The position numbers were made by a program, and so were the translations under genes. Below, piece after piece: positions 22,767 through 57,412 of a stretch of DNA of 64,000 nucleotides; the first letter of the stretch is position 1, and each line of letters begins with the position of its first letter. Below the pieces are notes generated by a model. The model did not search any database and had not been told where the DNA came from. It saw nothing but the letters and a program-made list of their open reading frames with translations. Source of the DNA: an uncultured Bacteroidales bacterium (GTDB lineage: Bacteria; Bacteroidota; Bacteroidia; Bacteroidales; VadinHA17); NCBI GenBank assembly GCA_963831855.1, contig CAWHSA010000004.1:194475-258474 (forward strand). Direction: 5' to 3'.

Positions 22767-22772
22767 AACTTT

Positions 22773-35059: not shown

Positions 35060-36544
35060 ATGAAAAGCAATCGTCGTGATTTTCTCAGGACCACAACATT
35101 TGCCGGGGCAGGTGCTTTGGCAGGTAGTATGATCTCCGGCTGCGCTCAGAAGGAAGCGGTATCAAATCTTGCAGGGATTCTTGAGGCTGTAAGAAAAACT
35201 CATTCTCCGCGATTTAACATGTCAGGATATGCTGCCCCGGCCCTCCCTGTTGTGAGAGTAGGCATCATAGGTCTTGGCGACAGGGGCGGTGAGGCTGTGA
35301 AACGGCTTACAAATATTGAAGGCGTCGAGATCAAGGCCCTTTGTGATAAACGGGAAGTTGCAGTTAAAGAATCACAAAAATATCTGCTGAGCATCGGACA
35401 TCCTGATGCACTGGAATTTTTCGGAGGCGAAGATGAATGGAAGAAGCTTATAGAACTACCTGATCTAGACCTGATTTATACATGCACCCCGTGGATTCTT
35501 CATACTCCCATTTGTGTTTATGCTATGGATCATGGAAAACATGCTGCGTCAGAAGTTCCCATTGCCAGGACCATTGATGAAGCATGGCAGCTGGTTGAGA
35601 CATCGGAAAGGACAAAGAAACATTGTATGATGCTCGAAAATTGCTGCTACGATTTCTTTGAGCTTCTTACTCTTAATATGGCCAGGCAGGGGATGTTTGG
35701 TGATATCATCCATGGTGAAGGTGCATATATTCATAACCTTCTTGGAATGAATTTTAAAAAACCAATTGACAATATCCAGGTCGACGGTGCATATACTGAT
35801 ATGTGGAGGCTGAAAGAAAATGCAACCAGGAACGGCAACCTTTACCCGACTCATGGACTTGGCCCTGTCTGCCAGGCTCTTAACATCAACCGGGGCGACA
35901 GAATGGAATATCTTTCTTCTGTATCAACAAAAGATTTTACCATGGCAGTTAAAGAAAAAGAGCTGGATGCATCAGATCCCTTTTATGATCTTTGGAAAAA
36001 TTCAGGGTTCAGAGGTAACTTCAATACCACGATTATAAGGTCGGCACTTGGGAAATCCATTATGATTCAGCACGATGTTTCCTCTTCACACCCATATTCA
36101 AGAATACACCTGGTCAAAGGGACCAGGGGAATGGCTGTTAAATACCCGAAACAGCTGATTGCACTTGGCGAAGTCTGGCTCAAAGAGGAGGATATGGCAA
36201 ACCTCTGGTCAGAGCATACACCCGAGATAGTAAAAAGGGTAGGAGAGATGGCTAAAAAAGTTGGCGGACACGGTGGGATGGACTTTATTATGGACTGGCG
36301 CCTTATTGATTGTCTGAGAAACGGTCTGCCTCTCGACCAGGATGTTTATGATGGTGCGGCATGGAGCTCAGTGGCTCCGTTAAGTGAATGGTCGGTGGCA
36401 AACAATTCTCAATCAATAGAAGTGCCCGATTTCACCGGGGGTTCATGGAAGATAAATAAGCCTCACGGAATAAATCTGGAGACAGGAGGAACAACTGCGT
36501 TTGTGGAAGTCAAAAAAGCTGAACTGCAGCCGGAGGAAAAATGA
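35060..36544 (+). CDS. Gfo/Idh/MocA-family NAD-dependent enzyme with Tat signal (GH109-like)
   Basis: 494 aa with the twin-arginine signal SNRRDFLRTTTFAGAGALAG and a lipobox-like ISGC. Also has the Rossmann motif VGIIGLGDRGG. This architecture is typical of GH109 alpha-N-acetylgalactosaminidase-like proteins. Confidence 0.7.
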   Translation: MKSNRRDFLRTTTFAGAGALAGSMISGCAQKEAVSNLAGILEAVRKTHSPRFNMSGYAAPALPVVRVGIIGLGDRGGEAVKRLTNIEGVEIKALCDKREVAVKESQKYLLSIGHPDALEFFGGEDEWKKLIELPDLDLIYTCTPWILHTPICVYAMDHGKHAASEVPIARTIDEAWQLVETSERTKKHCMMLENCCYDFFELLTLNMARQGMFGDIIHGEGAYIHNLLGMNFKKPIDNIQVDGAYTDMWRLKENATRNGNLYPTHGLGPVCQALNINRGDRMEYLSSVSTKDFTMAVKEKELDASDPFYDLWKNSGFRGNFNTTIIRSALGKSIMIQHDVSSSHPYSRIHLVKGTRGMAVKYPKQLIALGEVWLKEEDMANLWSEHTPEIVKRVGEMAKKVGGHGGMDFIMDWRLIDCLRNGLPLDQDVYDGAAWSSVAPLSEWSVANNSQSIEVPDFTGGSWKINKPHGINLETGGTTAFVEVKKAELQPEEK

Positions 36545-36671: not shown

Positions 36672-36679
36672 TACTTTTG
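36672..36679 (+). promoter_or_regulatory. Candidate Bacteroidota -7 promoter box (TAnnTTTG) for the Hyf/Ehr-like operon
   Basis: The sequence TACTTTTG lies about 35 nt upstream of the ATG at 36714. Confidence 0.3.
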
Positions 36680-36713
36680 CGGTCAAAATTTTTTGATCAG
36701 CGAAAATAAAAAA

Positions 36714-38708
36714 ATGTCGGGCGGTTTATTGTTTATCATAATTATCTCACTATCTCTTCCGGTTTTCTTCGTTCCAGGATCTCTGAAATACTACTACTCT
36801 CTCTTAATACTTGCCGGTGGAATTGGTTTGACTTCTATATGGTCATTTAATGTCCTTTCCGGTAGTATCGGTATTGCCGATTCAAAATTACTGATACCGT
36901 TAATTCATAATAACTTTATTCTGGCGATCGACAGGTTATCAGCATTTTTCCTGATAGTAATTAACATAACCGTTTTTGCCGGTTTCCTCTATGCCAGGGG
37001 ATACCTTCAGCCTTTCATTAAAACTAAAACACCGCTTCATTTCTCAATCCATTACTTCTCTTATCTGTGGCTTTATTTTTCGATGATTCTGGTCGTGATG
37101 ATCCGTAACGGACTCCCGTTTCTTATTGTCTGGGAAATTATGGCTCTCTCTTCATTCCTGCTGGTGATCTTTGATGCGGAGGAAAGGACTATTATGAAAA
37201 CAGGTATAGCCTATCTGATTCAGATGCATGCCGGTATGTTCTTTATTCTTGCAGCCTTCCTGATAGTGGATAAAGCAACAGGGAAAATGAGTTTTGATAC
37301 TCTGAATCTGTATTTTTCGAATCATTCAAATATTCTGATATTCATTCTCTTTTTTATAGGATTCGGTCTTAAGGCAGGATTCATACCCTTGCATACATGG
37401 CTTCCTGAAGCGCATCCGGCAGCTCCTTCACATGTTTCAGGAGTAATGTCAGGAGTAATGATAAAAATGGGCATATATGGAATCCTTAGGGTTCTGATAC
37501 AGGTTCAGAGCGATATGCTGCTGATCGGTGTTACCATACTGATAATTTCCCTGTTTTCAGGAGTTCTCGGGGTCATGATGGCTATTGTTCAACACGATCT
37601 GAAACGTTTACTGGCTTACCATAGCATTGAGAATATAGGTATTATAGGAATCGGAACAGGTCTTGGAATGGTGGGTCTTTCTGCAGAAAATAATGCATTG
37701 ACCCTACTTGGATTCAGCGGAAGCCTGCTTCATGTATTCAATCATTCACTTTTCAAATCACTCCTTTTTTTCAGTGCCGGATCAGTTTACAAAGCTACTC
37801 ATACGAGAAATATTGAACAACTCGGCGGGCTTATGAAAAATATGCCCTGGACATCAGGGTTGTTCCTTATCGGTTCCCTTGCAATATGCGGCCTTCCCCC
37901 ATTTAATGGCTTTATTTCGGAGTACCTGTTATACCTGGGGATGTTTAAAAGTCTTTCCGCTGCCAGCCTCTACCAGTCGATCCTGCTGTTATCAATGATC
38001 GTCGGACTTTCTCTTATCGGAGGACTTGCGCTTTTTTGTTTTACCAAAGCATTTGGGATTACTTTTCTGGGGTCACCACGATCAAAAAACGCTGCCGATG
38101 CAGTGGAAGTGACAAAAGATATGATATTACCCCAATTCATACTTGTTGCATTCATTGCAGCTGTAGGATTGGCTTCAGCTTTGTTTATCAGGCCTGTTTT
38201 TGGTATTGTGGTCCAGGCTTTTGGATTACCTGAATTATTAAATGGCTCAGGACCTTTCATAAATAACCTCACAAATATCAGTCTTATCAGTGGCATTTTT
38301 ATTGTTATGATTGTTATAATCCTGATATACAGATATATACATCTGAAATCCAGAAAGGTTGAAATCAGGTCCACCTGGGGCTGCGGGTATCCGGATACCA
38401 CATTCAGGCAGCAATATACAGCTACCTCTTATGCTTATAATTATAACCATCTGGCAAAACCTGTACTTCAGACCGGGAAGATCATGAATGACATCCGCGA
38501 GGATGAGATATTTCCCGAAAAAAGATCTTTCAGGTCACATAGCCCTGACATATTTAAAAAGCTTCTTGTTGATAAACCGGTAGATATTATTTCTGATCTG
38601 TTAAAGAAACTGGCAATAATGCAGACAGGAAAGATCCAGCATTATATATTATATGCATTTGTATTTATGCTTATTGTGTTATTGTTAACTTATTTAAAAG
38701 TTATCTGA
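36714..38708 (+). CDS. Antiporter-like membrane subunit, NuoL/HyfB/MrpA-like (EhrA-type)
   Basis: About 664 aa and polytopic. Has the motifs VWEIMALSSF, GLKAGFIPLHTWLPEAH, LAYHSIENIG and HSLFKSLLFF of the proton-conducting membrane transporter family. The longest ORF starts at a TTG at 36693; the ATG at 36714 is preferred. Confidence 0.8.
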   Translation: MSGGLLFIIIISLSLPVFFVPGSLKYYYSLLILAGGIGLTSIWSFNVLSGSIGIADSKLLIPLIHNNFILAIDRLSAFFLIVINITVFAGFLYARGYLQPFIKTKTPLHFSIHYFSYLWLYFSMILVVMIRNGLPFLIVWEIMALSSFLLVIFDAEERTIMKTGIAYLIQMHAGMFFILAAFLIVDKATGKMSFDTLNLYFSNHSNILIFILFFIGFGLKAGFIPLHTWLPEAHPAAPSHVSGVMSGVMIKMGIYGILRVLIQVQSDMLLIGVTILIISLFSGVLGVMMAIVQHDLKRLLAYHSIENIGIIGIGTGLGMVGLSAENNALTLLGFSGSLLHVFNHSLFKSLLFFSAGSVYKATHTRNIEQLGGLMKNMPWTSGLFLIGSLAICGLPPFNGFISEYLLYLGMFKSLSAASLYQSILLLSMIVGLSLIGGLALFCFTKAFGITFLGSPRSKNAADAVEVTKDMILPQFILVAFIAAVGLASALFIRPVFGIVVQAFGLPELLNGSGPFINNLTNISLISGIFIVMIVIILIYRYIHLKSRKVEIRSTWGCGYPDTTFRQQYTATSYAYNYNHLAKPVLQTGKIMNDIREDEIFPEKRSFRSHSPDIFKKLLVDKPVDIISDLLKKLAIMQTGKIQHYILYAFVFMLIVLLLTYLKVI

Positions 38709-38710
38709 TT

Positions 38711-39625
38711 TTGACAGGATTTGCTTTAATATTAGTTGCAGCGGTTTTCTTTCCCGGAGTAATATTGCGGGCAAAAAGCATTACCTCAGGACGAAGAGGA
38801 CCGGGTATATTGCAGCCTTTAAAAGATTTGCGGGTGCTGATGGGAAAAGGAAGTGTCTTCAGCAGCACTACAAGTATCATATTTCAGATTGCACCGGCAG
38901 TCTCTCTGGCCTCTGTTCTCTGTGCATCCCTTGTAGTTCCATTTGCAAATCAAAATGCATTTATTTCATTTGAAGGTGATTTTATCTTTTTCTCATACCT
39001 CCTTGCATCCGGAAAGTTCTTTTCAATCATTGCCGCACTTGATACCGGCAGCAGCTTCGGGGGAATGGGGGCAAACCGCGAAGCTTTCTTCTCCATGCTT
39101 ATTGAACCTGCATTTTTCATATTACTTGCTACTTTTGCCATGTTTACAGGCTATACCTCTTTCACTGATATTTTTAGCCACTTCTTTATTACAGGTAATC
39201 ATAATGTCTTAATATATAGCATTATAGGATTTTACCTGTTTATACAGATAGCTATGGTTGAGAACAGCCGTGTACCTGTGGATGATCCGAAGACTCACCT
39301 CGAACTTACTATGATTCATGAGGTGATGATTCTCGATAACAGCGGATTCGATAAAGCGTTGATCCACATAAGTTCATACCTGAAATTCGCGATTTATGGT
39401 TCTTTGATGTACAATCTTATAGTTCCTGCCGGATGGAACATAATTTTACAGATCGGGCTTTTTATTATGGTACAGCTTATGTTTGCTATCGTAATTGGGT
39501 TTACAGAATCTTTCCGGGCCCGGAATAAAATGAATAAAAATCCCAAATTCATTCTTACTATCTCAGCTGTTGCCTGGATTGCTTTTGTGGTGATTTTAAT
39601 ATTAACCGACAGATTTATCGGATAA
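38711..39625 (+). CDS. NuoH/HycD/HyfC-like membrane subunit (EhrB-type)
   Basis: 304 aa with about 8 TM. The loop RVPVDDPKTHLELTMIHEVMILDNSG aligns with the R-x-PFD-x2-E-x-E-x-EL...EYSG loop of the NuoH/HycD family. TTG start lies 2 nt after the upstream stop. Confidence 0.7.
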   Translation: MTGFALILVAAVFFPGVILRAKSITSGRRGPGILQPLKDLRVLMGKGSVFSSTTSIIFQIAPAVSLASVLCASLVVPFANQNAFISFEGDFIFFSYLLASGKFFSIIAALDTGSSFGGMGANREAFFSMLIEPAFFILLATFAMFTGYTSFTDIFSHFFITGNHNVLIYSIIGFYLFIQIAMVENSRVPVDDPKTHLELTMIHEVMILDNSGFDKALIHISSYLKFAIYGSLMYNLIVPAGWNIILQIGLFIMVQLMFAIVIGFTESFRARNKMNKNPKFILTISAVAWIAFVVILILTDRFIG

Positions 39626-39631
39626 ATAGAA

Positions 39632-40246
39632 ATGGTTAATTACCTTATAGTACTGTTCGCAATAACACTTATTTATTTTGCTTCCGCCGAAAGGCTGACA
39701 ACTTATATCAGGCTGATCGGTCTCCAGGGACTGTTGCTATGCGGAATTGCCCTTTTTGAGCTTAAGGAGATAAATGGTGCCAATCTTATCTTTATTGCAG
39801 CAGAAACGTTGATCTTCAAGACATTATTGATGCCGTACCTGTTGTTAAAGATCGTCAGGAACTCTGTCATTACCAAAGTCCATCGACTGGCTATGCCGGG
39901 ATTTTACACGCTTATCCTGTCAATATTTGCCCTTCTTATTAGTGTGATTCTCGCAAATTCCCTTATAAATCCCTTTATCAACACTATTTACATGTCAATT
40001 GCTCTGTTTGCTCTTTTTACCGGACTTGTGCTGATTGTTACCCACAGGCTTATAATCTCACACCTTATCGGTTTCCTGATAATTGAAAATGCTGTATTTA
40101 TGTTTTCTCTTGCTGTAGGAAATAAAATGCCAATGCTGATCAATGCCGGTATTCTGCTTGATATTTTCGTCGGAGTACTTATCCTTGGATTTTTCGGGTT
40201 GCGACTTAAATCGCATACCAACGAGCTGACAATGTTAAAAGATTAA
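39632..40246 (+). CDS. Small polytopic membrane subunit, HyfE/NuoK-like (EhrC-type)
   Basis: 204 aa with about 6 TM. Size and position match HyfE in hyf-type operons. The motif-level assignment is weak. Confidence 0.55.
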   Translation: MVNYLIVLFAITLIYFASAERLTTYIRLIGLQGLLLCGIALFELKEINGANLIFIAAETLIFKTLLMPYLLLKIVRNSVITKVHRLAMPGFYTLILSIFALLISVILANSLINPFINTIYMSIALFALFTGLVLIVTHRLIISHLIGFLIIENAVFMFSLAVGNKMPMLINAGILLDIFVGVLILGFFGLRLKSHTNELTMLKD

Positions 40247-40249
40247 GGT

Positions 40250-41686
40250 ATGGGACTACTCTTATTTTTTATTATTTCAGCGATAATGGGTATTTCAGTA
40301 GGAATACTCAAAAACAAAACTATCATTAAGATCATTACTCTCGGATTTGCAATTCTGCACATAGGTTTTACCTTGTACAGCTGGACTAATCTGGGAAGGA
40401 CCGAGCTGACTTATTTCTCTTATAATAGTCCGGGGGTATTATTGCTTTCAATCCTGTCGGTTCTTGTAATACCTACAATTTACCATGGATTTATTTATGC
40501 TTCCGGGAACGATGCCAAAAGATTCAGTATATATCATGGGGCATTAATTGCACTCATCACTTTCATGTCGGGCGCTTATCTGGCAAACGGAATGACTGTA
40601 TTATGGATATTTGTAGAAGCTACTACGCTTGCAGTAGCTGCCCTGATCTATCACGACCGGACTGAAATTGCCCTTGAGGCAACCTGGAAGTACGTATTTA
40701 TCTGTTCCACAGGTATTGCCCTGGCTTACCTGGGAATTCTGTTCTTAGGATTTATCTATGGCCGTGAAGATGCTGCAAACCTTTCTTTTGAAACTTTATC
40801 CGGTATAATCAACAAGGCGAATCCTATGTATCTGAAAATAGCGTTTCTGTTTGTCCTGGTCGGCTTCAGCACCAAGATGGGGCTTTTCCCGATGCATACT
40901 GTTACAATTGATGCTCACTCAGTTGCTCCTCCTCCGATAAGTGCGCTCATATCAACCACTTTGATGAATGTCGGGTTCCTGGCAATTTTCAGGGTATTTT
41001 CATTATTCTCATCATCATCAATCCTGAGCTTCATGAATAATGTCCTGATTCTTTCCGGGACACTTTCCATTTTAATTGCTGCGGGATATATGCTTAAAGC
41101 AAAGCACCTCAAACGGATGCTTGCTTATTCAAGCCTGGAAAATATGGGTCTTGTAGCAATTGCAATGGGTATTGGCGGTGTCGGGTATTATGCAGCATTT
41201 CTGCTACTGGTTCTCCATTCCCTGGCGAAATCTGGATTGTTCTATCAAATGGGCCAGCTTTCAAAGATACTTCACACATTCAAACTTGATGAGTGCGGGC
41301 GCTATATGAAACTTTACCCTGCAGGAGCAATGGTGCTTGTTACCGGAATGATCTGTATACTTGCTGTTCCGCCGTCAGGTTTATTTATTGCCGAATTCAT
41401 GATTTTTAAAGGATTGGTTTTCAACGGACAATGGCTGGTCATGATAATAGCAATCATATTGCTGTGCTTTGTTATATATGCAATGAGCACCAGAGTTATG
41501 CATATAGTATTTTCTGACCCGAGGAACCATTTTAAGCAGATTGAGCCGGACAGAGTAAGTCCTGTTGAGACATTCACCCAGTTTGCTTTTTTCGGAACAG
41601 TTATAGTTTTATGCTTTTATCAGCCTCCATTCCTCGTTGATCTCATTAATCAAAGCGTTGCATTATTGCCAAAATTAGCATTGTAA
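40250..41686 (+). CDS. Antiporter-like membrane subunit, NuoN/NuoM/HyfF-like (EhrD-type)
   Basis: 478 aa and polytopic. Has the motifs FVEATTLAV, FSTKMGLFPMHT, LAYSSLENMG and LHSLAKSGLFY of the proton-conducting membrane transporter family. Confidence 0.8.
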   Translation: MGLLLFFIISAIMGISVGILKNKTIIKIITLGFAILHIGFTLYSWTNLGRTELTYFSYNSPGVLLLSILSVLVIPTIYHGFIYASGNDAKRFSIYHGALIALITFMSGAYLANGMTVLWIFVEATTLAVAALIYHDRTEIALEATWKYVFICSTGIALAYLGILFLGFIYGREDAANLSFETLSGIINKANPMYLKIAFLFVLVGFSTKMGLFPMHTVTIDAHSVAPPPISALISTTLMNVGFLAIFRVFSLFSSSSILSFMNNVLILSGTLSILIAAGYMLKAKHLKRMLAYSSLENMGLVAIAMGIGGVGYYAAFLLLVLHSLAKSGLFYQMGQLSKILHTFKLDECGRYMKLYPAGAMVLVTGMICILAVPPSGLFIAEFMIFKGLVFNGQWLVMIIAIILLCFVIYAMSTRVMHIVFSDPRNHFKQIEPDRVSPVETFTQFAFFGTVIVLCFYQPPFLVDLINQSVALLPKLAL

Positions 41687-43203
41687 TGGGTCAGCACTTT
41701 AGAACAATAATAAACAATTCGTCACCGGTTGACATAAGGGATATACCCCTGTTAACCTATGATGAGTTTTATGTTCAGGTAACTGAATTTCTAAAAGCTG
41801 AAACCAGGCACTGTATTGCATATTTTTGTTATGAAGTCGCTGATAACCTGAGCTTTTATTGCTCAATTGCTGATGACAAGGATCTGACCATATCAGTATT
41901 TGCTTATTTATTGAATAAGAAGAATGCTACTTTAAAATCATTAACTCCGGCATCTCCCCAGCTTCATTTATTTGAGAGGGTGATCCATGAAAAGTACGGA
42001 GTGGAATTTAAGGGGCACCCATGGCTGAAGTTTGTCCGGTTCCCCCATGACCGTTTTGAAAAGGCAAAATCGATGCATGATTATCCTTTTTATGAAATTG
42101 AGAGCGAAGAGCTTCATGAAGTTGGAGTAGGCCCGGTTCATGCCGGTGTAATTGAACCAGGTCATTTCAGATTCATTTGCAACGGTGAAAAAGTATTGCA
42201 TCTTGAAATCCAGCTGGGGTATCAGCATCGTGGTATTGAAAAGTTGTTTCTCGAAAAAGGTACTCCACTGCAACAGTGTATAACCTCTGAATCCATTGCC
42301 GGAGATACTTCTGTCGGACATTCACTTGCCCATGCACAGCTTATTGAATCTTTAGCTGGATTGGAAACAGGTATAAAATTGCAGATTGAGCGCTGTATTG
42401 GCCTTGAACTTGAAAGGATGGCTGTTCATATTGGCGATACTGCTGCCTTATGCGGGGATGTAGCTTACCAGTTGGGACAGGTTGTTTGTGAAGCGCTCCG
42501 GACTACCATCATCAATACAACTCAACTCTGGTGCGGTAACCGCTTCGGAAAGGGACTTATACGTCCGGGCGGGACCAATTATCCTCTTAATGATAATGTT
42601 ACAGATGAGATAATGAGAGTTCTGACAGATACAGGAAAACGTTATTCAGAAATCGCAGACCGCATATTTACTCTGCCGAGTGTTCTTGCCCGTTTTGAGG
42701 ACATCGGAATAGTTACCAGGCAACAGGCAGCCGATACAGGGGCAGTGGGAATGGCAGCCCGGACATGTGGTATCCCCAGGGATATCCGGAAAACTCATCC
42801 TTTTCAATACTATAAAAGTTATCCAGTGCAACCCGTAATGCATTTTACAGGAGATGTACTGGCACGTGGGATGCAAAGGGTGCTTGAGGTAAAGGAATCT
42901 GCTAAGATCATCTCAGATCTTATTGGCATTTGGAAACAAAACTCAGGTCACAACCTGATGCCCGATTATAATTATAAGCTGAAACCGGGAAGTTACGCAG
43001 TTTCTCTGGTAGAAGGATGGAGGGGAGAAATTTGCCATGCTGCCGTAACCGGCGACAATGGTGAAATTATACATTATTATGTTAAGGATCCATCATTTCA
43101 CAACTGGATGTCACTCGCTCTGGCAGTCCGTAATCAGGAGATATCAGATTTTCCTGTTTGCAATAAAAGCTTTAACCTTTCCTATTGCGGACACGATTTG
43201 TAA
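41686..43203 (+). CDS. NuoC-NuoD / HycE-HyfG-like large subunit lacking the NiFe-binding cysteines (EhrL-type)
   Basis: 505 aa. The NuoC-like part has FERVIHEKYGVEFKGHP. The NuoD/large-subunit part has GVGPVHAGVIEPGHFRF and LGYQHRGIEK. The L1 site reads ESIAGDTSVGH where ER-x-CG-x-C-x3-H is expected. The C-terminus reads SFNLSYCGHDL where D-P-C-x-x-C-x-x-R/H is expected. The start overlaps the upstream stop (TAATG). Confidence 0.85.
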   Translation: MGQHFRTIINNSSPVDIRDIPLLTYDEFYVQVTEFLKAETRHCIAYFCYEVADNLSFYCSIADDKDLTISVFAYLLNKKNATLKSLTPASPQLHLFERVIHEKYGVEFKGHPWLKFVRFPHDRFEKAKSMHDYPFYEIESEELHEVGVGPVHAGVIEPGHFRFICNGEKVLHLEIQLGYQHRGIEKLFLEKGTPLQQCITSESIAGDTSVGHSLAHAQLIESLAGLETGIKLQIERCIGLELERMAVHIGDTAALCGDVAYQLGQVVCEALRTTIINTTQLWCGNRFGKGLIRPGGTNYPLNDNVTDEIMRVLTDTGKRYSEIADRIFTLPSVLARFEDIGIVTRQQAADTGAVGMAARTCGIPRDIRKTHPFQYYKSYPVQPVMHFTGDVLARGMQRVLEVKESAKIISDLIGIWKQNSGHNLMPDYNYKLKPGSYAVSLVEGWRGEICHAAVTGDNGEIIHYYVKDPSFHNWMSLALAVRNQEISDFPVCNKSFNLSYCGHDL

Positions 43204-43222
43204 GTCTTAATCATTTTTAAGG

Positions 43223-43978
43223 ATGATGTTGAAAGAAATAAAAATACTGAAGAGTCACGGCAGCCAGTACGTGAAGAACCTGCGGACACAAGCAGTTTCA
43301 CCGGCATTCAGAGGGCGTCCTGTAATTTCAGATGATCTGGGCAGTCCTGAAATACATTTTGTGACAAACCTTTGCCCGGTACAGGCGATAGGGAGTGAAA
43401 CCGGTTCCATTGATCTCGGCAAGTGCGTTTTTTGCAATGAATGTGCCCTGGCTCTTCCGGGGAAAATCAGATTTACAAGTGATTACAGGACAGCGGTTAA
43501 CAGGAGGGAGGATCTGGTAATTAATCCGGGAATTGATGTTCAGATCAGGTTAAATGATAATGTTATCAGGAAAGAGGCAAGGAAGTTATTCAAAAACGCA
43601 CTGAAGCTAAGACAGGTTTCTGCCGGTGGTGATAATTCGTGCGAGATGGAACTCGCAGCGACCGGGAACGTAAACTTTGATTTTGGACGCTACGGAATTG
43701 AATTTACCGCTTCGCCACGTCATGCAGACGGGATTGTAATCACCGGTCCGATAAGTGAAAACATGGCTGAAGCATTGGTAATGACATATGACGCAATACC
43801 TTCACCAAAGATCATCATACTTGCCGGAACTGATGCTATAAGCGGAGGTATCTTTGCAGGCACTCCTGCCCTGAACAGGCAGTTTATCGATAACCATCAT
43901 ATTGATCTATATATTCCCGGAAATCCGGTTCACCCGCTGACATTTATAAATGGAGTGCTGGATCTGCTTGGGATATAA
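43223..43978 (+). CDS. NuoB/HycG/HyfI-like small subunit with N-terminal single-cluster ferredoxin-like segment; proximal-cluster ligands mostly lost (EhrS-type)
   Basis: 251 aa. The NuoB-like core is FTASPRHADGIVITG ... PSPKIIILAGTDAISGG ... DLYIPGNPVHP. Only one Cys (GGDNSCEME) sits at the four canonical ligand positions. The N-terminus has LCPVQAI plus CVFCNEC. Confidence 0.8.
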   Translation: MMLKEIKILKSHGSQYVKNLRTQAVSPAFRGRPVISDDLGSPEIHFVTNLCPVQAIGSETGSIDLGKCVFCNECALALPGKIRFTSDYRTAVNRREDLVINPGIDVQIRLNDNVIRKEARKLFKNALKLRQVSAGGDNSCEMELAATGNVNFDFGRYGIEFTASPRHADGIVITGPISENMAEALVMTYDAIPSPKIIILAGTDAISGGIFAGTPALNRQFIDNHHIDLYIPGNPVHPLTFINGVLDLLGI

Positions 43979-53623: not shown

Positions 53624-56600
53624 CTATTTAATTTTTACCAGGTGCACGGTTTTTGAATGTCCGGGGAATTCAACCTTGAGATAATATACTCCTGGTGCAA
53701 GCCCGGTACCGGATATTTCTGCCGTACTGGTTCCTATAGTTATATCCTTGTCGAAATCAACTAAAACAGTCCCTCCAAAATTTGTCAGAGTAAAATGAGC
53801 TATCCCATTGAACTCCGAGTTCAGAACAATATTGATTTTATCCCTGAATGGATTTGGGGTGACCAGTAAAGGTTTGTTCAGCTCATTGTTCCTGATATTA
53901 ACCCTTACTGTATCATTTAGAAGATAATCATCATTATTATTGTATCCGTAGGCAACTATATTATAGTTTCCATAATATGACAGATTCGCATTGGTATTGA
54001 ATGTAACGGTCACGGAATCCCCGGATGGTATCAGTGTATAATCAAAATGCTGTGTTACAGGAGTCGAGTTATTAATAGAATAAGCCATATTAAATCCGCG
54101 GATAGTGTCTCTTCCGATATTTGCAATCCTCAGAGAAACAGGCTCTTTCCCGAGATTATCTTTATTGACAGGCGTGACAAATCTTGCAGTAATGATATCT
54201 TTCTTTATATATGTAACTGTTGCAGGACCCGTGAAATCAATCATATCTATCAAAGCACAATCCAGGCCGGATGAAACCGACTGGTCCTTTTTGTACAGCC
54301 ATTCCATTTTGTTGTATCCTTTTTTAACAGGTATAGCCTCCTTTTGCCAGGCGATCTCACCCGACTTTTTCATGATCTCAACATCATTGAGCCTGAAGAG
54401 CAGAAAATCGTAACTTGCCTCGGAGGAGACAGAGTAATAAAATTTAAGAGAGTCTGCCTGAGGATACCATGCTTTTATACATAGTGCCGATGTCTCGTTG
54501 TGTGAAATTGCCCCTGACCGTGCTGAAACAATGCCATCCCGGGAATTTAATTGCGTGATGGTCCAGGGGATCGGGCTCACATTAATCCAGGGGAATATAT
54601 TGAAAGTGGCGGATTCAAATGATTCCCTGACACGTCCCACCCGGAAACTAAAGTTTCTGTTGACAAAATGCGGATCACAGTTCAGAAAAGAATTCAGGGA
54701 AATAGTAGTCCCGGAGGATGCTGATGGCAATAATTTAACCATAACAGGTATCTGTGTAATTTTCTCCTCTTCAAGATTCCCGGAACCCTTGCCGGGTTCG
54801 AGGACTGTGAGTTCCGGATCCGGACTTGATACATTAAATATACCTGAAGTATTGCTGCTTCCGCTGTTTCTTACATTAAATAACAGATTAAATGTCTCAC
54901 CCGGGTCAGCGATAAAGTCACCGTTTCCTGTTTGTTTGTCGTCAAATTTGTAATTTAATATATCCAGTTCAGGAGCATGGACATTCATGTCAATCTTATA
55001 ATCTTTTTCACAAGCATCATCTCTTAGGATAAGGTCGAAGGTGACAATGCCTTTATCCGGAACCTCCCTTGATAACCTTACATTGAGTTTGTTGTTCAGG
55101 ATTATCTCAGATCCCGGACCAAGTGTTCCGATATCAGCAGAATCATTCAGAATTGTAACCCATGCAGAAGTTGTTGATATTAATGCACGCAGGTTATTAG
55201 CTCCGGTCAGTCCCAGGTTACTGATTGTCAGCTTAAGGGAAAAAGTCTCACCGAAATCAGCAAGACCATTATTGTTTCCCGACTGATCGTTTATCCCTGA
55301 TTTTGTAAGGTTTATAAATTCACTCTTAACATTGGAAAAATATACTTTTTTTATGACAGGCTTCTTATTCTGGCCTGTTATGACGAAAAGACAGGAATCA
55401 TCCGATAAGCCAGGCATATCCAGAGTTACAGAACCAGATGGGCTTAGGAATGATGCGTCCCAGAGTGTATCGAAATGTGAAACAGCAGCATATGAAAAAG
55501 GATCGCCGTTGAATGAAAATGATTTGATATTGTTTGGCAGTGTATCGGGGAGGGAAGTGCTGAACACACCGGGAGTACCTATAATCGGAATAATGCTTGG
55601 ATCCCCTACAAGGTTATAGTTTTCCCAGTAATATTTCTTTTTTGATGTGGTACTTGCGCTTACTGACAGGTTACCAGCAAAATTGATCTGACCCATGGTT
55701 ATATACCAGTCCGATGGTGATTCGTTATGAGTATGAAACATACGGTCCAGAGCCCCGAGCCCTGTGGTTTCATATTTCGGACTGGAAGAAGGGATTCCGG
55801 TTCCGACTGCCCAGTAAAAATCCTCATCCCAGTATGAGTCATCTGCACACCCTATAAAACCAATAGCGCCCTTATTCCCGGAAACTACCAAGCTGTTTCC
55901 AAGGGATGGCTGGCTGAAGGCAGATGTCGAGCAGGCATTGCTTATTATAAAAGGATACATGTTCTTGTTCCTGAATCGCAGTGAATCGGAGGTGTAAATA
56001 TTTGATGAATCCTTAGAAGTGCTGTGTATGAGCCATCCTGTTGGTTGTCCGTGGCCACTGTAATTCAGGAACGAAATACCTTTATTCACCCGGTCGATAA
56101 TGGACGACTTTGTACTCTTAGTAACATCAGCTGAATAAAAGTGAAATTCAGTTATTTTGTTGGCACTGTTCAGATAATTGTCAAGTGAGTATTTTATCTG
56201 GCCATTCATATAATCTGCATGCGCCGCGTCTATGCCGGCAGTGGCCAGCGCATTTGAATAAAATTTATTAGTATCTGCAAACTCAAATTTCTCATACTGA
56301 ATGATTTTGTCAACCACATATCTCAACTCGGTCGTGTCCTTAACCGGTAATCTTCCAATGAACATTTCAGGGATGTAATCGCCATTTCCGTCAAACTCTC
56401 CATAATACATATCGGTTACACTTCCGGTTCCGTAATATGGTATCCTGCTTACATTCCCAATAATAAGAAGAAATTCCGGTGGAGGATTATCTGTTGTTGA
56501 AGATTTATAAATTCGGTCCAGGGTATCTTTCAGGGCAGTATATGTGTTACCTGCGAGGCCGGCTCCTTTGTACAATACATCAATAAGGAAGCCCTTCTGG

Positions 56601-57412
56601 GTTTTCCACCTGATTAAGGGCTGGAGACCCTTTTTAAATGCGGTATCCGTCAGAATTACCATCCTGACCGGTTTATCTGTGTACCCGGTGATTACATTTC
56701 CTGGATTGTAGTTAAGAACTCCTTTTTCAAGCAGTTCACCTGTTAATGGAGATTCGGGGAAAAGTGCTTTTGATTGGATATCGACAGCCGGTGAAAAAGA
56801 TATCTCAATTTTCATCGAAATGATGACCTCAATGCTGTTTTTATGCGGGTTATATCTGACCGGGGAGATCATGACATTCGCAAGGTTTTTTCCCCTGGTA
56901 GTTCCTAATGGTTCAATTCTGACGGTATCCTGACCAATGAACTCACGCGAAGCGTAAATCTCTTTATCAAAGGCAAATCGCGGCTTTTTATCCTTTAATA
57001 TTTTAGCTTCGCTTTCCTGAGCAGGATAAAGTACCCCTTTGATTTTCTTAGTCGATGGTCTGAACCTTGTAGATCTGACTTCAGAAATCTTTATTATGGG
57101 TTTATAGCCTGTCGGCACCTCGATCAGACGGCTGAGAACAGGAAACTCGGGTTTGCCGGTATCAGCAGAATGAATGTGACCCGGAATTTCAATTCTGAAG
57201 AATGTTCCCTGGTCATTTATAAGATCTTCAAGATTAAGCTCTGAAAATGAATAATTTATGATTAGTGAGTGATCATTGGCAATGATCTCTTTAGCCTGTT
57301 GTTCAATATGAGGAATATACTTATATAGCCTTCCCGTCTGGCCCGATGAAGTTAATGCAAATGCAGCAAAAAAAGCCAGTAACCTGTATTGTTTAAAATT
57401 CCCCAAAATCAT
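53624..57412 (-). CDS. C25 (gingipain-family) cysteine peptidase-like protein with T9SS C-terminal sorting domain; possibly PorU-type
   Basis: 1262 aa with a signal peptide. Has the His motif YSGHGQPTGW and the Cys motif FIISNACSTSAF of clan CD/C25. The C-terminal ~80 aa (VTPNPFRDKINIV...GVYYLKVEF...VKIK) looks like a T9SS CTD. Confidence 0.8.
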   Translation of the reverse strand: MILGNFKQYRLLAFFAAFALTSSGQTGRLYKYIPHIEQQAKEIIANDHSLIINYSFSELNLEDLINDQGTFFRIEIPGHIHSADTGKPEFPVLSRLIEVPTGYKPIIKISEVRSTRFRPSTKKIKGVLYPAQESEAKILKDKKPRFAFDKEIYASREFIGQDTVRIEPLGTTRGKNLANVMISPVRYNPHKNSIEVIISMKIEISFSPAVDIQSKALFPESPLTGELLEKGVLNYNPGNVITGYTDKPVRMVILTDTAFKKGLQPLIRWKTQKGFLIDVLYKGAGLAGNTYTALKDTLDRIYKSSTTDNPPPEFLLIIGNVSRIPYYGTGSVTDMYYGEFDGNGDYIPEMFIGRLPVKDTTELRYVVDKIIQYEKFEFADTNKFYSNALATAGIDAAHADYMNGQIKYSLDNYLNSANKITEFHFYSADVTKSTKSSIIDRVNKGISFLNYSGHGQPTGWLIHSTSKDSSNIYTSDSLRFRNKNMYPFIISNACSTSAFSQPSLGNSLVVSGNKGAIGFIGCADDSYWDEDFYWAVGTGIPSSSPKYETTGLGALDRMFHTHNESPSDWYITMGQINFAGNLSVSASTTSKKKYYWENYNLVGDPSIIPIIGTPGVFSTSLPDTLPNNIKSFSFNGDPFSYAAVSHFDTLWDASFLSPSGSVTLDMPGLSDDSCLFVITGQNKKPVIKKVYFSNVKSEFINLTKSGINDQSGNNNGLADFGETFSLKLTISNLGLTGANNLRALISTTSAWVTILNDSADIGTLGPGSEIILNNKLNVRLSREVPDKGIVTFDLILRDDACEKDYKIDMNVHAPELDILNYKFDDKQTGNGDFIADPGETFNLLFNVRNSGSSNTSGIFNVSSPDPELTVLEPGKGSGNLEEEKITQIPVMVKLLPSASSGTTISLNSFLNCDPHFVNRNFSFRVGRVRESFESATFNIFPWINVSPIPWTITQLNSRDGIVSARSGAISHNETSALCIKAWYPQADSLKFYYSVSSEASYDFLLFRLNDVEIMKKSGEIAWQKEAIPVKKGYNKMEWLYKKDQSVSSGLDCALIDMIDFTGPATVTYIKKDIITARFVTPVNKDNLGKEPVSLRIANIGRDTIRGFNMAYSINNSTPVTQHFDYTLIPSGDSVTVTFNTNANLSYYGNYNIVAYGYNNNDDYLLNDTVRVNIRNNELNKPLLVTPNPFRDKINIVLNSEFNGIAHFTLTNFGGTVLVDFDKDITIGTSTAEISGTGLAPGVYYLKVEFPGHSKTVHLVKIK

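What the first reader, a model, noticed from the sequence alone, without database searches (positions are those of the whole stretch)
41686..43203. Hydrogenase-like large subunit with none of the four canonical NiFe cysteine ligands and no C-terminal maturation extension
The protein aligns well with group-4 large subunits (GVGPVHAGVIEPGHFRF, LGYQHRGIEK). The N-terminal ligand motif is normally E-R-x-C-G-x-C-x3-H, but here it reads E-S-I-A-G-D-T-S-V-G-H (nt 42289-42321), so the two cysteines are Ala and Thr. The C-terminal motif is normally D-I/F-P-x4-S-I-D-P-C-x-x-C-x-D-R, but here it reads D-F-P-V-C-N-K-S-F-N-L-S-Y-C-G-H-D-L followed by the stop codon. In my alignment the two ligand positions are Ser and Gly, and two non-aligned cysteines lie nearby. 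The ORF ends 3 residues after the motif. There is therefore no peptide for an endopeptidase to remove, which is consistent with no Ni insertion. The site that houses NiFe in hydrogenases, and quinone in complex I, must therefore be doing something else or nothing.
Basis: partly seen in the sequence, partly recalled or inferred. Interest (0 to 1): 0.75.

Follow-up and report, generated by a model that had tools for sequence, protein, structure and literature searches.

The report
Nickel-free hydrogenase relative (Ehr) in Bacteroidales
This gene encodes the large subunit of an 'Ehr' complex, a known membrane-bound relative of hydrogenases that has lost its nickel-iron site, and this Bacteroidales version has also lost the neighbouring iron-sulfur cluster, so it probably moves ions without doing hydrogen or quinone chemistry.

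Summary
ORF 41686-43203 is a 505-aa NuoC-NuoD/HycE-like protein. Ala205, Thr208, Ser499 and Gly502 occupy the four [NiFe] ligand columns in pairwise, multiple and profile-profile alignments. The protein ends three residues after the last column.

[quoted passage not shown] The gene lies in a conserved six-gene operon (36693-43978): HyfB-, NuoH/HyfC-, HyfE- and HyfF-like subunits, the large subunit, and a NuoI-NuoB fusion.

- **Missing C-terminal extension.** It is uninformative, because the closest relatives that keep all four cysteines also stop there.
- **Small subunit.** In this Bacteroidota clade, three of the four proximal [4Fe-4S] ligands are replaced by Asp137, Asp204 and Asn234. Only one ferredoxin-type cluster keeps its ligands (Cys51/68/71/74, invariant). 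"Classical" Ehr small subunits keep all four cysteines in 61 of 66 cases.

The membrane subunits retain every ion-translocation residue I checked. The off-register cysteines Cys492 and Cys501 are each replaced in 10-15% of orthologues, independently of one another.

Best reading: a cofactor-depleted Ehr variant that translocates ions without electron delivery to the old active site. Its identity is secure; the mechanism is inferred.

The parts
36672..36679 (+). Possible Bacteroidetes-type -7 promoter element TACTTTTG, in the 148-bp gap upstream of the operon
   Evidence: Read directly from the sequence. The consensus TAnnTTTG is from my own knowledge of Bacteroides promoters. The sigma-70 scan found no more sites than the shuffled controls. 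This is an inference only.
36693..38708 (+). HyfB/NuoL-like antiporter-type membrane subunit (671 aa)
   Evidence: Pfam Proton_antipo_M, E 7e-51. NCBIfam hydrogenase 4 subunit B, E 8.7e-161. E148, K227, K258, H347, H351 and K355 are invariant in 86/86 family members and E410 is Glu in 83/86.
38711..39625 (+). NuoH/HycD/HyfC-like membrane subunit (304 aa)
   Evidence: Pfam NADHdh, E 1.5e-27. The motifs SGRRGP and DTGSSFxGMGASREA...EP, and the loop ENSRxPxDDPKTHLELTMxHEVMILDxSG, are conserved across 67 family members.
39632..40246 (+). HyfE-like membrane subunit (204 aa)
   Evidence: NCBIfam hydrogenase 4 membrane subunit, E 2.2e-10. The membrane glutamates in 'ET..FK' and 'iEN.Vf' are invariant in 72 members.
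40250..41686 (+). HyfF/NuoM/N-like antiporter-type membrane subunit (478 aa)
   Evidence: Pfam Proton_antipo_M, E 7e-41. NCBIfam hydrogenase 4 subunit F, E 2e-68. E123, K209, H323, K327 and E382 are invariant in 73/73. N240 occupies the TM8 lysine position, as in E. coli HyfF.
41686..43203 (+). The finding: Ehr large subunit, a NuoC-NuoD/HycE-like fusion with no [NiFe] ligands (505 aa)
   Evidence: Its start overlaps the stop of the preceding gene by 1 nt.
42289..42321 (+). Remnant of the L1 motif, E-S-I-A-G-D-T-S-V-G-H. A205 and T208 replace the two Cys, and D207 is invariant
   Evidence: D207 aligns with the quinone-ligating Tyr of Nqo4 and the 49-kDa subunit (alignments).
43147..43203 (+). 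Remnant of the L2 motif, D-F-P-V-C-N-K-S-F-N-L-S-Y-C-G-H-D-L, plus the stop codon. S499 and G502 replace the two Cys
43223..43978 (+). Small subunit: fusion of a NuoI/HycF-like ferredoxin domain (about aa 1-105) with a NuoB/HycG/MbhJ-like domain (about aa 130-251)
   Evidence: Pfam Oxidored_q6, E 2.2e-18. NCBIfam NuoB, plus weak HycF and NuoI matches at the N-terminus. PDB: MbhJ 8e-20, HycG 1.3e-17, HycF 3e-3.
43373..43444 (+). The only four cysteines left of the 2x[4Fe-4S] ferredoxin motifs: C51 (C-P of motif I) and C68-x2-C71-x2-C74 (motif II). This is the ligand set of one cluster
   Evidence: All four are invariant in 72/72 sequences. Alignment with HycF, HyfH and NuoI. The assignment to the N6b-type cluster is from my own knowledge of Nqo9.
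43631..43924 (+). Positions of the four proximal (N2-type) cluster ligands, now D137, C140, D204 and N234
   Evidence: HycG, HyfI and NuoB have Cys in all four columns. In 70 loci with both subunits, D137 is present in 69/70. In 72 HI sequences, C140 is present in 59, D204 in 69 and N234 in 72.

Best explanation
The ORF is the large subunit (EhrL type) of an Ehr complex. Ehr complexes are membrane-bound, complex-I-like relatives of group-4 [NiFe] hydrogenases that have lost the Ni-Fe site.

It is co-transcribed with five partners in a self-contained six-gene operon:
- two antiporter-like subunits (HyfB- and HyfF-like);
- a NuoH/HycD-like subunit;
- a HyfE-like subunit;
- a NuoI-NuoB fusion that serves as the small subunit.

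In this Bacteroidota lineage the small subunit has also lost three of the four ligands of the proximal [4Fe-4S] cluster. Its ferredoxin domain keeps the ligands of only one cluster. No wire of Fe-S clusters therefore reaches the former active site. The complex is neither a hydrogenase nor a conventional quinone reductase.

The membrane arm keeps every ion-translocation residue checked, and the coupling loops of the large and NuoH-like subunits are under strong constraint. The most likely function is ion (H+/Na+) translocation that does not depend on electron delivery to the old catalytic pocket. That would make it a secondary, Mrp-like antiporter or ion-handling machine. The peripheral arm would be kept as a structural or gating cap. 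The orphan [4Fe-4S] would be a structural or sensory remnant.

**Shown:** the identity, the loss of ligands, the operon, and the conservation patterns.

**Inferred:** that the remaining cysteines bind a cluster, that electron transfer to the pocket is impossible, and that the complex acts as a redox-independent ion translocator.
For: **Identity**
- Pfam, NCBIfam and PDB matches.
- Foldseek best hit HycE 7z0s_E, TM 0.73/0.70.
- Ungapped profile alignment at both ligand motifs.
- Published descriptions of Ehr with the same NuoC-D and NuoI-B fusions plus HyfB, HyfF, NuoH-like and HyfE (PMC6349859 Supplementary Note 4).

**Operon**
- The order B-C-E-F-G-HI is strictly conserved in the 80 related genome loci, wherever the contig spans it.
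- Intergenic gaps run from -1 to 19 nt.
- No flanking gene family occurs in more than 12 of the 80 loci.

**Cofactor loss**
- D137/C140/D204/N234 occupy the four columns where HycG, HyfI, NuoB and MbhJ have Cys.
- Only C51, C68, C71 and C74 are invariant in the ferredoxin domain.
- Classical Ehr small subunits keep CCCC in 61 of 66 cases.
- Basal members of the same large-subunit clade still have every Cys, so the loss is derived.

**Functional membrane arm**
- TM5 Glu, TM7 Lys, TM8 Lys, the TM11 His/Lys and TM12 Glu are invariant or nearly so (E410 is Glu in 83/86) in both antiporter-like subunits.
- The NuoH-like loop and the HyfE-like glutamates are conserved.

**Not decaying**
- The family is found in hundreds of species-level genomes and in more than 8000 database proteins.
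- G206, D207, S499, Y500, G502 and D504 are invariant.
Against: - No experiment exists for any Ehr, and the literature says the function is unknown.
- The strict invariance of the four remaining cysteines and of the hydrogenase-like beta1-beta2 loop (GPVHAGVIEPGHFRF, the same core as in Cys-bearing relatives) could mean that a redox or catalytic role survives.
- D137, D204 and N234 are conserved polar replacements. They could bind another metal or cofactor that restores an electron path or creates a new active site.
- An Mrp-type antiporter does not need a peripheral arm, so keeping a large, well-conserved arm is not explained by antiport alone.
- The AlphaFold monomer is unreliable exactly at the pocket (pLDDT below 50 at residues 123-181 and 482-505), so no geometry was checked.
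- Only 64 kb of the genome was seen, so partner genes elsewhere cannot be excluded.
Confidence: 0.55

Rival explanations
1. The complex is still a redox-driven pump. Reduced ferredoxin or flavodoxin donates electrons to the single remaining [4Fe-4S]. The electrons pass to an unknown acceptor: a soluble partner, a membrane carrier, or a metal bound at the D137/C140/D204/N234 site. This reaction drives ion translocation.
For: - C51, C68, C71 and C74 are invariant in 72/72 sequences.
- The coupling loops and the proton-pathway Glu202 are retained.
- Classical Ehr complexes keep one to three clusters, which suggests the ancestral function was redox.
- A 2-oxoacid:ferredoxin oxidoreductase-like gene lies in the window at 21153-22766.
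Against: - Three of the four proximal-cluster ligands are gone in all 70 Bacteroidota loci examined.
- The surface-exposed cluster of the ferredoxin domain, the usual entry point, has lost its ligands.
- The retained cluster corresponds to N6b. In complex I, N6b reaches the substrate pocket only through N2 (my own knowledge of complex I geometry).
- No electron-input or acceptor gene is conserved next to the operon.
Confidence: 0.22
2. The former redox pockets have been rebuilt into a new, non-redox catalytic or ligand-binding site. The pockets are the one around D207, E202, T208 and S499 in the large subunit, and the one formed by D137, D204 and N234 in the small subunit. Candidate functions are cation binding or sensing, or vectorial CO2 hydration, with binding or turnover coupled to the membrane arm.
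For: - The replacement residues are themselves conserved. D207 is present in 120/120, S499 in 120/120, N234 in 72/72 and D204 in 69/72. Random fill-ins would not be conserved like this.
- They are carboxylate, amide and hydroxyl side chains, which are typical of cation sites.
- D207 sits at the position of the quinone-ligating Tyr of complex I.
Against: - The same [AS]GD[ST] and NLSY-x-G-x-D residues occur in classical Ehr complexes that keep the proximal cluster. They may simply be the hydrogen-bond network that replaces Ni-Fe.
- There is no recognisable catalytic motif.
- No conserved neighbouring gene and no riboswitch points to a substrate.
- The pocket geometry could not be modelled.
Confidence: 0.15
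3. It is a cryptic metal enzyme that uses the off-register cysteines (C492, C501, possibly C165 and small-subunit C140) to bind Ni-Fe, an Fe-S cluster or a persulfide.
For: - C165 is invariant in 78/78 sequences.
- C492 is present in 67/78 and C501 in 65/78 in the Bacteroidota clade.
- C492 is present in 119/120 and C501 in 120/120 among close homologues.
Against: - The profile alignment keeps these cysteines out of the ligand columns.
- C492 is replaced by N, S or A and C501 by S or A in 10-15% of orthologues that have an otherwise intact operon.
- Their losses are independent of one another and of C140.
- In more distant Ehr clades they are I/V/N and S/A.
- No hyp or hycI homologue lies in the window (weak evidence, because only 64 kb was seen).
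Confidence: 0.05
4. It is a decaying, non-functional remnant of a hydrogenase operon.
For: Catalytic and cluster ligands have been lost stepwise.
Against: - All six ORFs are intact.
- Gene order is identical across 49-72% protein identity in 80 loci.
- Many positions are invariant in every subunit.
- The family is present in hundreds of species.
Confidence: 0.03

Closest known systems
Ehr (energy-converting / Ech hydrogenase-related) complexes, e.g. Geobacter sulfurreducens EhrA-S (GSU0739-45) and those of Nitrospira, Margulisbacteria and Elusimicrobia
   Same: [quoted passage not shown]
- The subunit set is the same: HyfB- and HyfF-like antiporter subunits, a NuoH-like subunit, a HyfE-like subunit, a NuoC-NuoD fusion and a NuoI-NuoB fusion.
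- The active-site remnant is shared: [AS]GD[ST] with NLSY-x-G-x-D.
- Function is unknown.
   Different: - In the metagenomic 'classical' Ehr loci examined, the small subunit keeps all four proximal-cluster cysteines in 61 of 66 cases. Here they are D-C-D-N.
- This clade has A rather than S before G-D.
- It has clade-specific cysteines at positions 165, 492 and 501.
- No formate dehydrogenase or NuoEF genes lie nearby, unlike the FDH-Ehr arrangement proposed for Margulisbacteria.
E. coli hydrogenase 3 / formate hydrogenlyase (HycE, PDB 7Z0S) and hydrogenase 4 (HyfB-I)
   Same: - Best sequence and structure match: E 3.3e-36 and TM 0.73.
- The beta1-beta2 loop core EPGHFR is identical.
- The membrane subunits are best described as HyfB, HyfC, HyfE and HyfF homologues.
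   Different: - HycE and HyfG have CGIC and CYSC ligands and a 32-aa C-terminal extension removed by HycI.
- HycG and HyfI have the proximal cluster, and HycF and HyfH have two clusters.
- FHL has the HycB/FdhF input module.
- None of these is present here.
Respiratory complex I Q-module (NuoCD / Nqo4 / 49-kDa subunit with NuoB and NuoI)
   Same: - Same fold, and the same NuoC-NuoD fusion as in E. coli and Aquifex.
- No Ni-Fe ligands, and the protein ends right after the ...D-[RL] motif.
   Different: - The quinone-ligating Tyr position is Asp207.
- The NuoB-like partner lacks the N2 ligands.
- tblastn with E. coli NuoA and NuoJ found nothing in the window, and NuoE, NuoF and NuoG were not queried.
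- The sequence is closer to HycE than to NuoD.
Pyrococcus furiosus MBH / MBS (Mbx) complexes (PDB 6CFW, 6U8Y)
   Same: - They are homologous peripheral modules on an Mrp-like membrane arm. MbhL matches at E 1.3e-27, MbsL at 1.7e-12 and MbhJ at 8e-20.
- MBS is a precedent for a hydrogenase relative that changed its chemistry.
   Different: - By my own knowledge, MBH and MBS keep the full three-cluster chain.
- MBH has Ni-Fe, and MBS retains part of the site for polysulfide chemistry.
- Here both the site and the proximal cluster ligands are gone.
Mrp-type multisubunit cation/proton antiporters
   Same: - The MrpA/MrpD-type (Proton_antipo_M) subunits have the full set of conserved Glu, Lys and His residues.
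- This is the proposed functional analogy: ion translocation with no redox input.
   Different: - Mrp has no NuoH-, NuoD- or NuoB-like subunits.
- The MrpB, C, E, F and G subunits are not part of this operon.
- The analogy concerns how the complex may work, not family membership.

Membership tests
Group-4 [NiFe] hydrogenase large subunit | N-terminal (L1) R-x-C-G-x-C-x3-H motif supplying two Ni/Fe cysteine ligands | tested here: not met
   The motif reads E-S-I-A205-G-D-T208-S-V-G-H. A and T sit in the Cys columns in phmmer, MAFFT and hhalign alignments, and this is fixed in the family.
Group-4 [NiFe] hydrogenase large subunit | C-terminal (L2) D-P-C-x-x-C-x-x-[HR] motif supplying two Ni/Fe cysteine ligands | tested here: not met
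   The motif reads N-L-S499-Y-C-G502-H-D-L. S and G sit in the Cys columns. S499 and G502 are present in 120/120 sequences.
Group-4 [NiFe] hydrogenase large subunit | Homology and fold of the HycE/EchE/MbhL large subunit | tested here: met
   HycE E 3.3e-36 and MbhL 1.3e-27. Foldseek 7z0s_E TM 0.73/0.70. hhalign probability 100.
Group-4 [NiFe] hydrogenase (complex level) | Small subunit with a proximal [4Fe-4S] bound by four Cys | tested here: not met
   D137/C140/D204/N234 occupy the columns where HycG, HyfI, NuoB and MbhJ have Cys.
Group-4 [NiFe] hydrogenase (complex level) | Hyp maturation genes and/or a specific endopeptidase in the genome | tested here: inconclusive
   tblastn with E. coli HypA-F and HycI found nothing in the 64-kb window. 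The rest of the genome was not available.
Ehr (energy-converting hydrogenase-related) complex | Large subunit related to group-4 hydrogenases but lacking the residues that coordinate Ni and Fe (definition as in PMC6349859, PMC10284858, PMC12342949) | tested here: met
   literature.
Ehr (energy-converting hydrogenase-related) complex | Gene cluster with Mrp/antiporter-like subunits (HyfB, HyfF), NuoH-like and HyfE-like subunits, and NuoB-like (often NuoI-NuoB) and NuoC-NuoD subunits | tested here: met
   domains; order conserved in the 80 loci. This matches Supplementary Note 4 of PMC6349859.
Ehr (energy-converting hydrogenase-related) complex | Groups phylogenetically with other Cys-less large subunits rather than with HycE/HyfG or NuoD | tested here: met
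   In a neighbour-joining tree, the window-type clade is nested among metagenomic Ehr clades, with E. coli HycE, HyfG and NuoCD outside. No support values were computed, so this is indicative only.
Complex I Q-module (NuoD/49-kDa) | Quinone head-group ligands (Tyr87 and His38 in T. thermophilus Nqo4 numbering) | tested here: not met
   The Tyr column is the invariant Asp207 (alignments with 2fug_4 and 8ba0_D). The His position is ambiguous: P158/H160, in a HycE-like EPGHFR loop.
Complex I Q-module (NuoD/49-kDa) | Cluster N2 in the partner NuoB subunit | tested here: not met
Complex I | Full membrane set including NuoA and NuoJ | tested here: not met
   tblastn with E. coli NuoA and NuoJ found no hit in the window. 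Only the B, CD, H, I, L, M and N queries hit, and all within the operon. NuoE, NuoF and NuoG were not among the queries, so the N-module was not tested.
Mrp-type antiporter (working analogy, not membership) | MrpA/MrpD-type subunits with conserved TM5 Glu, TM7/TM8 Lys and TM12 Glu/Lys | tested here: met
   Both antiporter-like subunits keep them, in 86/86 (E410 83/86) and 73/73 sequences.
Mrp-type antiporter (working analogy, not membership) | Presence of MrpB, C, E, F and G subunits | not tested
   No Mrp reference sequences were compared. The operon has only six genes, all assigned to Hyf/Nuo families.

The most novel reading that the evidence does not exclude
The Bacteroidota Ehr is a 'redox-dead' complex-I-like machine. 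It has cut the Fe-S wire but kept the whole conformational coupling apparatus. The two former cofactor pockets are the D207/E202/T208/S499 pocket and the D137/D204/N234 pocket. In this reading they are converted into a non-redox ligand- or cation-binding (or catalytic) site that drives or gates ion translocation, and the orphan [4Fe-4S] acts as a redox or oxygen sensor. If so, the complex-I coupling mechanism could be run, and studied, without electron transfer.
Probability: 0.2. Interest if true: 0.8.

Novelty: new variant of a known kind. Interest (0 to 1): 0.42.

Why it matters
What Ehr complexes do has been open since they were named, and papers from 2019 to 2025 still call the function unknown. 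They are also placed on the evolutionary path between hydrogenases and complex I.

A large, widespread clade has removed the proximal cluster as well as the Ni-Fe site. It still keeps the membrane arm, the coupling loops and the pocket residues under strong constraint. That makes it a natural dissection experiment. It argues that at least this Ehr does not need electrons at the old active site.

It also yields clear, cheap predictions:
- 4 Fe and no Ni per complex;
- one EPR-visible cluster;
- no H2 activity;
- ion transport without a redox substrate.

The organisms are anaerobic Bacteroidales from sediments, digesters and lakes, so the complex may be a common but unrecognised part of their ion or energy economy. 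If it is instead only a structural relic on an antiporter, the finding is ordinary comparative genomics.

Tried and rejected
1. **Structure prediction of the pocket.** I ran AlphaFold2 on the large subunit with a 58-sequence alignment. Overall pTM was 0.83, but pLDDT was below 50 exactly at residues 123-181 and 482-505. The cavity and the spatial relation of C165, C492 and C501 could not be inspected. The tool returns no coordinates, and complexes cannot be submitted.
2. **Search for a conserved partner gene.** I clustered all flanking ORFs of the 80 loci. The best family, the upstream GH109-like gene, occurs in only 12 loci, all close relatives. I rejected the idea of a co-encoded input module.
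3. **Covariation of cysteines across subunits.** This tested for an inter-subunit cluster formed by small-subunit C140 with large-subunit C492 and C501. The losses are independent, so I rejected it.
4. **Hyp/HycI search in the window.** Nothing was found, but 64 kb is too little sequence for this to mean much.
5. **Riboswitch or RNA leader upstream of the operon.** No Rfam match was found.
6. **Sigma-70 promoter scan.** It found no more sites than the shuffled controls.
7. **Literature on Fe-S content of Ehr small subunits.** The key papers (Coppi 2005, Marreiros 2013) are not in the library, and several searches were swamped by 'electronic health record' hits. I therefore cannot exclude that loss of the proximal cluster was noted before.
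8. **Origin of the window.** An exact look-up gave only an unnamed Logan contig.
9. **Taxonomy of distant representatives.** Most carry no names.

Full report
**1. The observation**

The ORF at 41686-43203 (+) exists and encodes 505 residues. Pfam finds the complex-I 49-kDa domain (E 4.6e-34), preceded by a 30-kDa (NuoC) domain (E 2.1e-7). The protein is therefore a NuoC-NuoD-type fusion.

Against solved structures, the best matches are:
- E. coli HycE of formate hydrogenlyase (7z0s_E, E 3.3e-36);
- P. furiosus MbhL (1.3e-27);
- T. thermophilus Nqo4 (8e-26).

E202-S-I-A-G-D-T-S-V-G-H212 lies at nt 42289-42321. D488...L505 lies at nt 43147-43200, directly before the stop codon.

**2. Are the four ligand positions really non-cysteine?**

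Three alignments agree, and none has a gap at either motif:
- The phmmer alignment with HycE pairs s-e-s-i-A-g-d-T-s-v-g-h with s-d-r-v-C-g-i-C-g-f-a-h. It also pairs ...n-k-s-f-n-l-S-y with ...i-g-s-l-d-p-C-y.
- MAFFT with E. coli HycE, HyfG and NuoCD gives the same result and extends it to C-G-H-D-L against S-C-T-D-R.
- hhalign compares the family profile (58 sequences) with a profile of Cys-bearing hydrogenases (HycE, HyfG and five metagenomic relatives). It gives probability 100 and E 7.6e-73, and aligns sEsIAGDTsvGH with aeRvCGvCsxsH and NKSFNLSYCGnD with NkSfelCYSCxD.

So A205, T208, S499 and G502 occupy the ligand columns. C501 is one column early and C492 is seven columns early.

The substitutions are fixed. 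In 120 homologues of 66-100% identity, A205 is present in 116, T208 in 113, and S499 and G502 in all 120. G206 and D207 are invariant.

**3. The C-terminal end**

E. coli HycE and HyfG carry 32 residues after C-T-D-R. This protein and all 120 close homologues stop at D-L.

This says nothing about nickel, however. The nearest relatives that do have CGxC and CYSC also stop at D-[LR]:
- P0220, P0234, P0247, P0257 and P0260, at 34-37% identity. The P0220 cluster is named 'nickel-dependent hydrogenase large subunit' by its sources.
- The metagenomic loci L116, L158, L160 and L162.

By my own knowledge, CooH- and EchE-type group-4 enzymes also lack the extension.

**4. What it belongs to**

The gene is the fifth of six tightly packed genes on the + strand, with gaps from -1 to 19 nt:
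- a HyfB-like antiporter subunit (36693-38708);
- a NuoH/HycD/HyfC-like subunit (38711-39625);
- a HyfE-like subunit (39632-40246);
- a HyfF-like antiporter subunit (40250-41686);
- the large subunit;
- a 251-aa fusion of a NuoI/HycF-like ferredoxin domain with a NuoB/HycG-like domain (43223-43978).

A scan of one genome per GTDB species found at least 595 related stretches. The best 80 are almost all Bacteroidota MAGs: Bacteroidales, Rikenellaceae, Lentimicrobiaceae, Prolixibacteraceae, Cytophagales, Chitinophagaceae and Saprospiraceae, plus an Ignavibacteriaceae bin and a 'Spirochaetes' bin. In those 80 loci the order B-C-E-F-G-HI is strictly conserved wherever the contig spans it. Twenty-one loci have a second HyfB-like gene.

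No flanking gene family is shared by more than 12 loci, so the operon is self-contained.

This is the published Ehr (energy-converting, or Ech, hydrogenase-related) complex. [quoted passage not shown] Supplementary Note 4 of PMC6349859 describes the same NuoC-NuoD and NuoI-NuoB fusions together with HyfB, HyfF, NuoH-like and HyfE subunits.

**5. What is unusual here: the small subunit**

In the NuoB-like domain, MbhJ, HycG, HyfI and NuoB have the four cysteines of the proximal (N2-type) [4Fe-4S]. At those columns this protein has D137, C140, D204 and N234. Across 72 orthologues, N234 is invariant, D204 is present in 69, and C140 in only 59. D137 is present in 69 of the 70 loci compared across both subunits. 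No other cysteine of that domain is invariant.

In the ferredoxin-like domain, only four cysteines survive of the usual eight. They are C51 (the C-P that ends motif I) and C68-x2-C71-x2-C74 (the start of motif II). All four are invariant in 72/72 sequences. The other four positions read S41, I44, V47 and L78 here, and are variable or hydrophobic across the family. This is exactly the ligand set of one cubane. By my own knowledge of T. thermophilus Nqo9, it is the N6b-type cluster, which normally sits between N6a and N2.

To see whether this pattern is general for Ehr, I fetched 80 metagenomic loci using a profile of distant Cys-less large subunits. They have the same gene order, and the same L1 and L2 remnants (E-[RS]-[IV]-S-G-D... 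and N-L-S-Y-[SA]-G-x-D-[LR]).

Their small subunits, however, keep all four proximal cysteines in 61 of 66 cases. They have zero, one or two ferredoxin-type motifs. Only three of them lack the proximal set (SCDD, DADN and TEGD).

In a neighbour-joining tree (no support values), the window-type large subunits form one clade nested among these classical Ehr clades. Its basal members are L089, L097 and L150, which lie next to a classical Ehr operon. Their small subunits still have every cysteine.

Loss of the proximal cluster is therefore a derived step inside the clade, and it is fixed in the Bacteroidota lineage (70 of 70 loci).

The inferred series is:
1. hydrogenase, with Ni-Fe plus three clusters;
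2. Ehr, with no Ni-Fe and one to three clusters;
3. this variant, with no Ni-Fe, no proximal cluster and one orphan cluster.

**6. Is the rest of the machine intact?**

Both antiporter-like subunits keep the residues that carry out ion translocation in complex I and Mrp:
- TM5 Glu (E148 in the HyfB-like subunit, E123 in the HyfF-like subunit);
- TM7 Lys (K227, K209);
- TM8 Lys (K258 in the HyfB-like subunit; N240 in the HyfF-like subunit, as in E. coli HyfF);
- the TM11 His/Lys residues;
- TM12 Glu (E410, E382).

All are invariant in 86 and 73 family members respectively, except E410, which is Glu in 83 of 86.

The NuoH-like subunit keeps SGRRGP and DTGSSFxGMGASREA...EP. It also has a family-invariant version of the TM5-6 loop. 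The HyfE-like subunit keeps its membrane glutamates.

In the large subunit, the beta1-beta2 loop GPVHAGVIEPGHFRF is essentially the same as in the Cys-bearing relatives. Glu202 of the hydrogenase proton path is kept as Glu in 115 of 120 and as Asp in the other 5.

The complex is under purifying selection as a whole. It is not a decaying operon.

**7. The off-register cysteines**

C165 is invariant in the Bacteroidota clade. C492 is replaced in 11 of 78 orthologues (mostly by N or S). C501 is replaced in 13 of 78 (by S in 10). In more distant Ehr clades these positions are I/V/N and S/A.

Across the 70 loci with both subunits, loss of small-subunit C140 and loss of C492 or C501 are independent. 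C140 is lost in 13 loci; 12 of them keep C492 and 12 keep C501. C492 and C501 are never lost together. This is not how obligate ligands of a shared metal site behave.

C283 and C501 are lost together in 7 loci. This may be a clade effect or a contact, and I did not pursue it.

The pocket itself could not be modelled. The AlphaFold model has pTM 0.83, but pLDDT is below 50 at residues 123-181 and 482-505. Foldseek confirms the fold (HycE TM 0.73/0.70; fused NuoCD of Aquifex and E. coli; MbhL). It also shows no solved Ehr structure in the PDB copy.

**8. How it most likely works**

*Shown:* there are no Ni-Fe ligands and no proximal-cluster ligands. One complete cluster-ligand set remains. The ion-translocation residues and coupling loops are intact. 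No partner gene is co-encoded.

*Inferred:* in complex I, N6b reaches the substrate pocket only through N2 (my own knowledge). Electrons therefore cannot reach the former active site, and the distal entry cluster is missing as well. The complex is then most simply an ion-translocating machine that works without electron delivery to the pocket. It would be Mrp-like in function. The peripheral arm would be retained as a structural or gating cap over the NuoH-like channel. The orphan cluster would be a structural or sensory remnant; the off-pathway cluster N7 of bacterial complex I is a precedent (my own knowledge).

I put about 0.95 on the identity (an Ehr, not a hydrogenase) and about 0.4 on this mechanism.

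The main rival, at about 0.2, is that the single cluster still takes electrons from ferredoxin to an unknown acceptor.

A more novel rival is that the conserved polar replacements form a new non-redox binding or catalytic site. These are D207 at the position of the complex-I quinone Tyr, together with D137, D204 and N234. The first group also occurs in classical Ehr complexes that keep the proximal cluster, so it may simply be the hydrogen-bond network that replaced Ni-Fe.

**9. Novelty and score**

What may be new is the Bacteroidota-wide variant with the Fe-S wire cut. I could not check the two founding Ehr papers, so earlier mention cannot be excluded.

I rate it a new variant of a known kind, of moderate interest. 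It does not overturn anything. It does sharpen a twenty-year-old open question into cheap, decisive experiments.

Noticed in passing
L089:2-2665, L097:10129-12584, L150:2-1746 (metagenome contigs): A window-type large subunit (ending ...NLSYCGFDL), paired with a NuoI-NuoB fusion that still has all nine cysteines, lies directly beside a complete classical Ehr operon on the same strand. The two Ehr types therefore coexist in one genome. The gene order differs between contigs: G-HI lies before the classical operon in L089 and L150, and after it in L097.
   Followed up: partly
L116, L158, L160, L162; proteins P0220, P0234, P0247, P0257, P0260: True [NiFe]-type relatives (ERICGVC... with ELCYSCTD[LR]) share the DFPLINKSF motif with Ehr, end without a C-terminal extension, and fall among Ehr clades in the NJ tree. 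This suggests that Ehr and this hydrogenase group are very close, or that the ligands were lost more than once.
   Followed up: partly
L095:1068-1607, L108:1143-1679, L163:3004-3543: Three short (about 179 aa) NuoB-only small subunits of classical-type Ehr loci also lack the proximal-cluster cysteines (SCDD, TEGD, DADN). Cluster loss may therefore have happened independently outside Bacteroidota.
   Followed up: no
window 43454-43456 (L78 of the small subunit) and orthologues: Seven of 72 orthologues still have Cys at position 78, the eighth ferredoxin cysteine. This is a relic of the lost second cluster. Position 188 of the NuoB-like domain is Cys in 52 of 72 orthologues but Thr in the window.
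   Followed up: no
window 42532-42534 (C283) and 43186-43188 (C501): C283 and C501 of the large subunit are lost together in 7 loci and separately in only 6. This may reflect a shared clade or a physical contact or disulfide.
   Followed up: no
L037-L079 (21 of the 80 genome loci): Some orthologous operons carry two tandem HyfB-like genes (B-B-C-E-F-G-HI) instead of one.
   Followed up: partly
window 35060-36544: A GH109 / GFO-IDH-MocA family oxidoreductase with a twin-arginine signal lies 148 bp upstream on the same strand. It is syntenic in only 12 of the 80 related loci, all close relatives, so it is probably not part of the system.
   Followed up: yes
window 36672-36679: TACTTTTG matches the Bacteroidetes -7 promoter consensus TAnnTTTG. 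It lies 13 nt upstream of the TTG start of the first operon gene.
   Followed up: no
window 21153-23348: A 2-oxoacid:ferredoxin oxidoreductase-like gene (POR_N plus a TPP-binding domain) is followed by a 191-aa ORF. This resembles an indolepyruvate:ferredoxin oxidoreductase pair and is a possible source of reduced ferredoxin in this organism.
   Followed up: no
window 53624-57412 (-) and 57565-60915 (+): There is a 1262-aa peptidase C25 (gingipain-like) protein with a propeptide and an Ig-like domain. Next to it is a 1116-aa protein with a two-component-regulator propeller domain and a SpoIIE-type phosphatase domain. Both are typical Bacteroidales features and are unrelated to the finding.
   Followed up: no
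window 1-64000: No Rfam family reaches its gathering score anywhere in the window, so there is no tRNA-like, riboswitch or other known RNA family. No hyp or hycI homologue is present in the window.
   Followed up: yes
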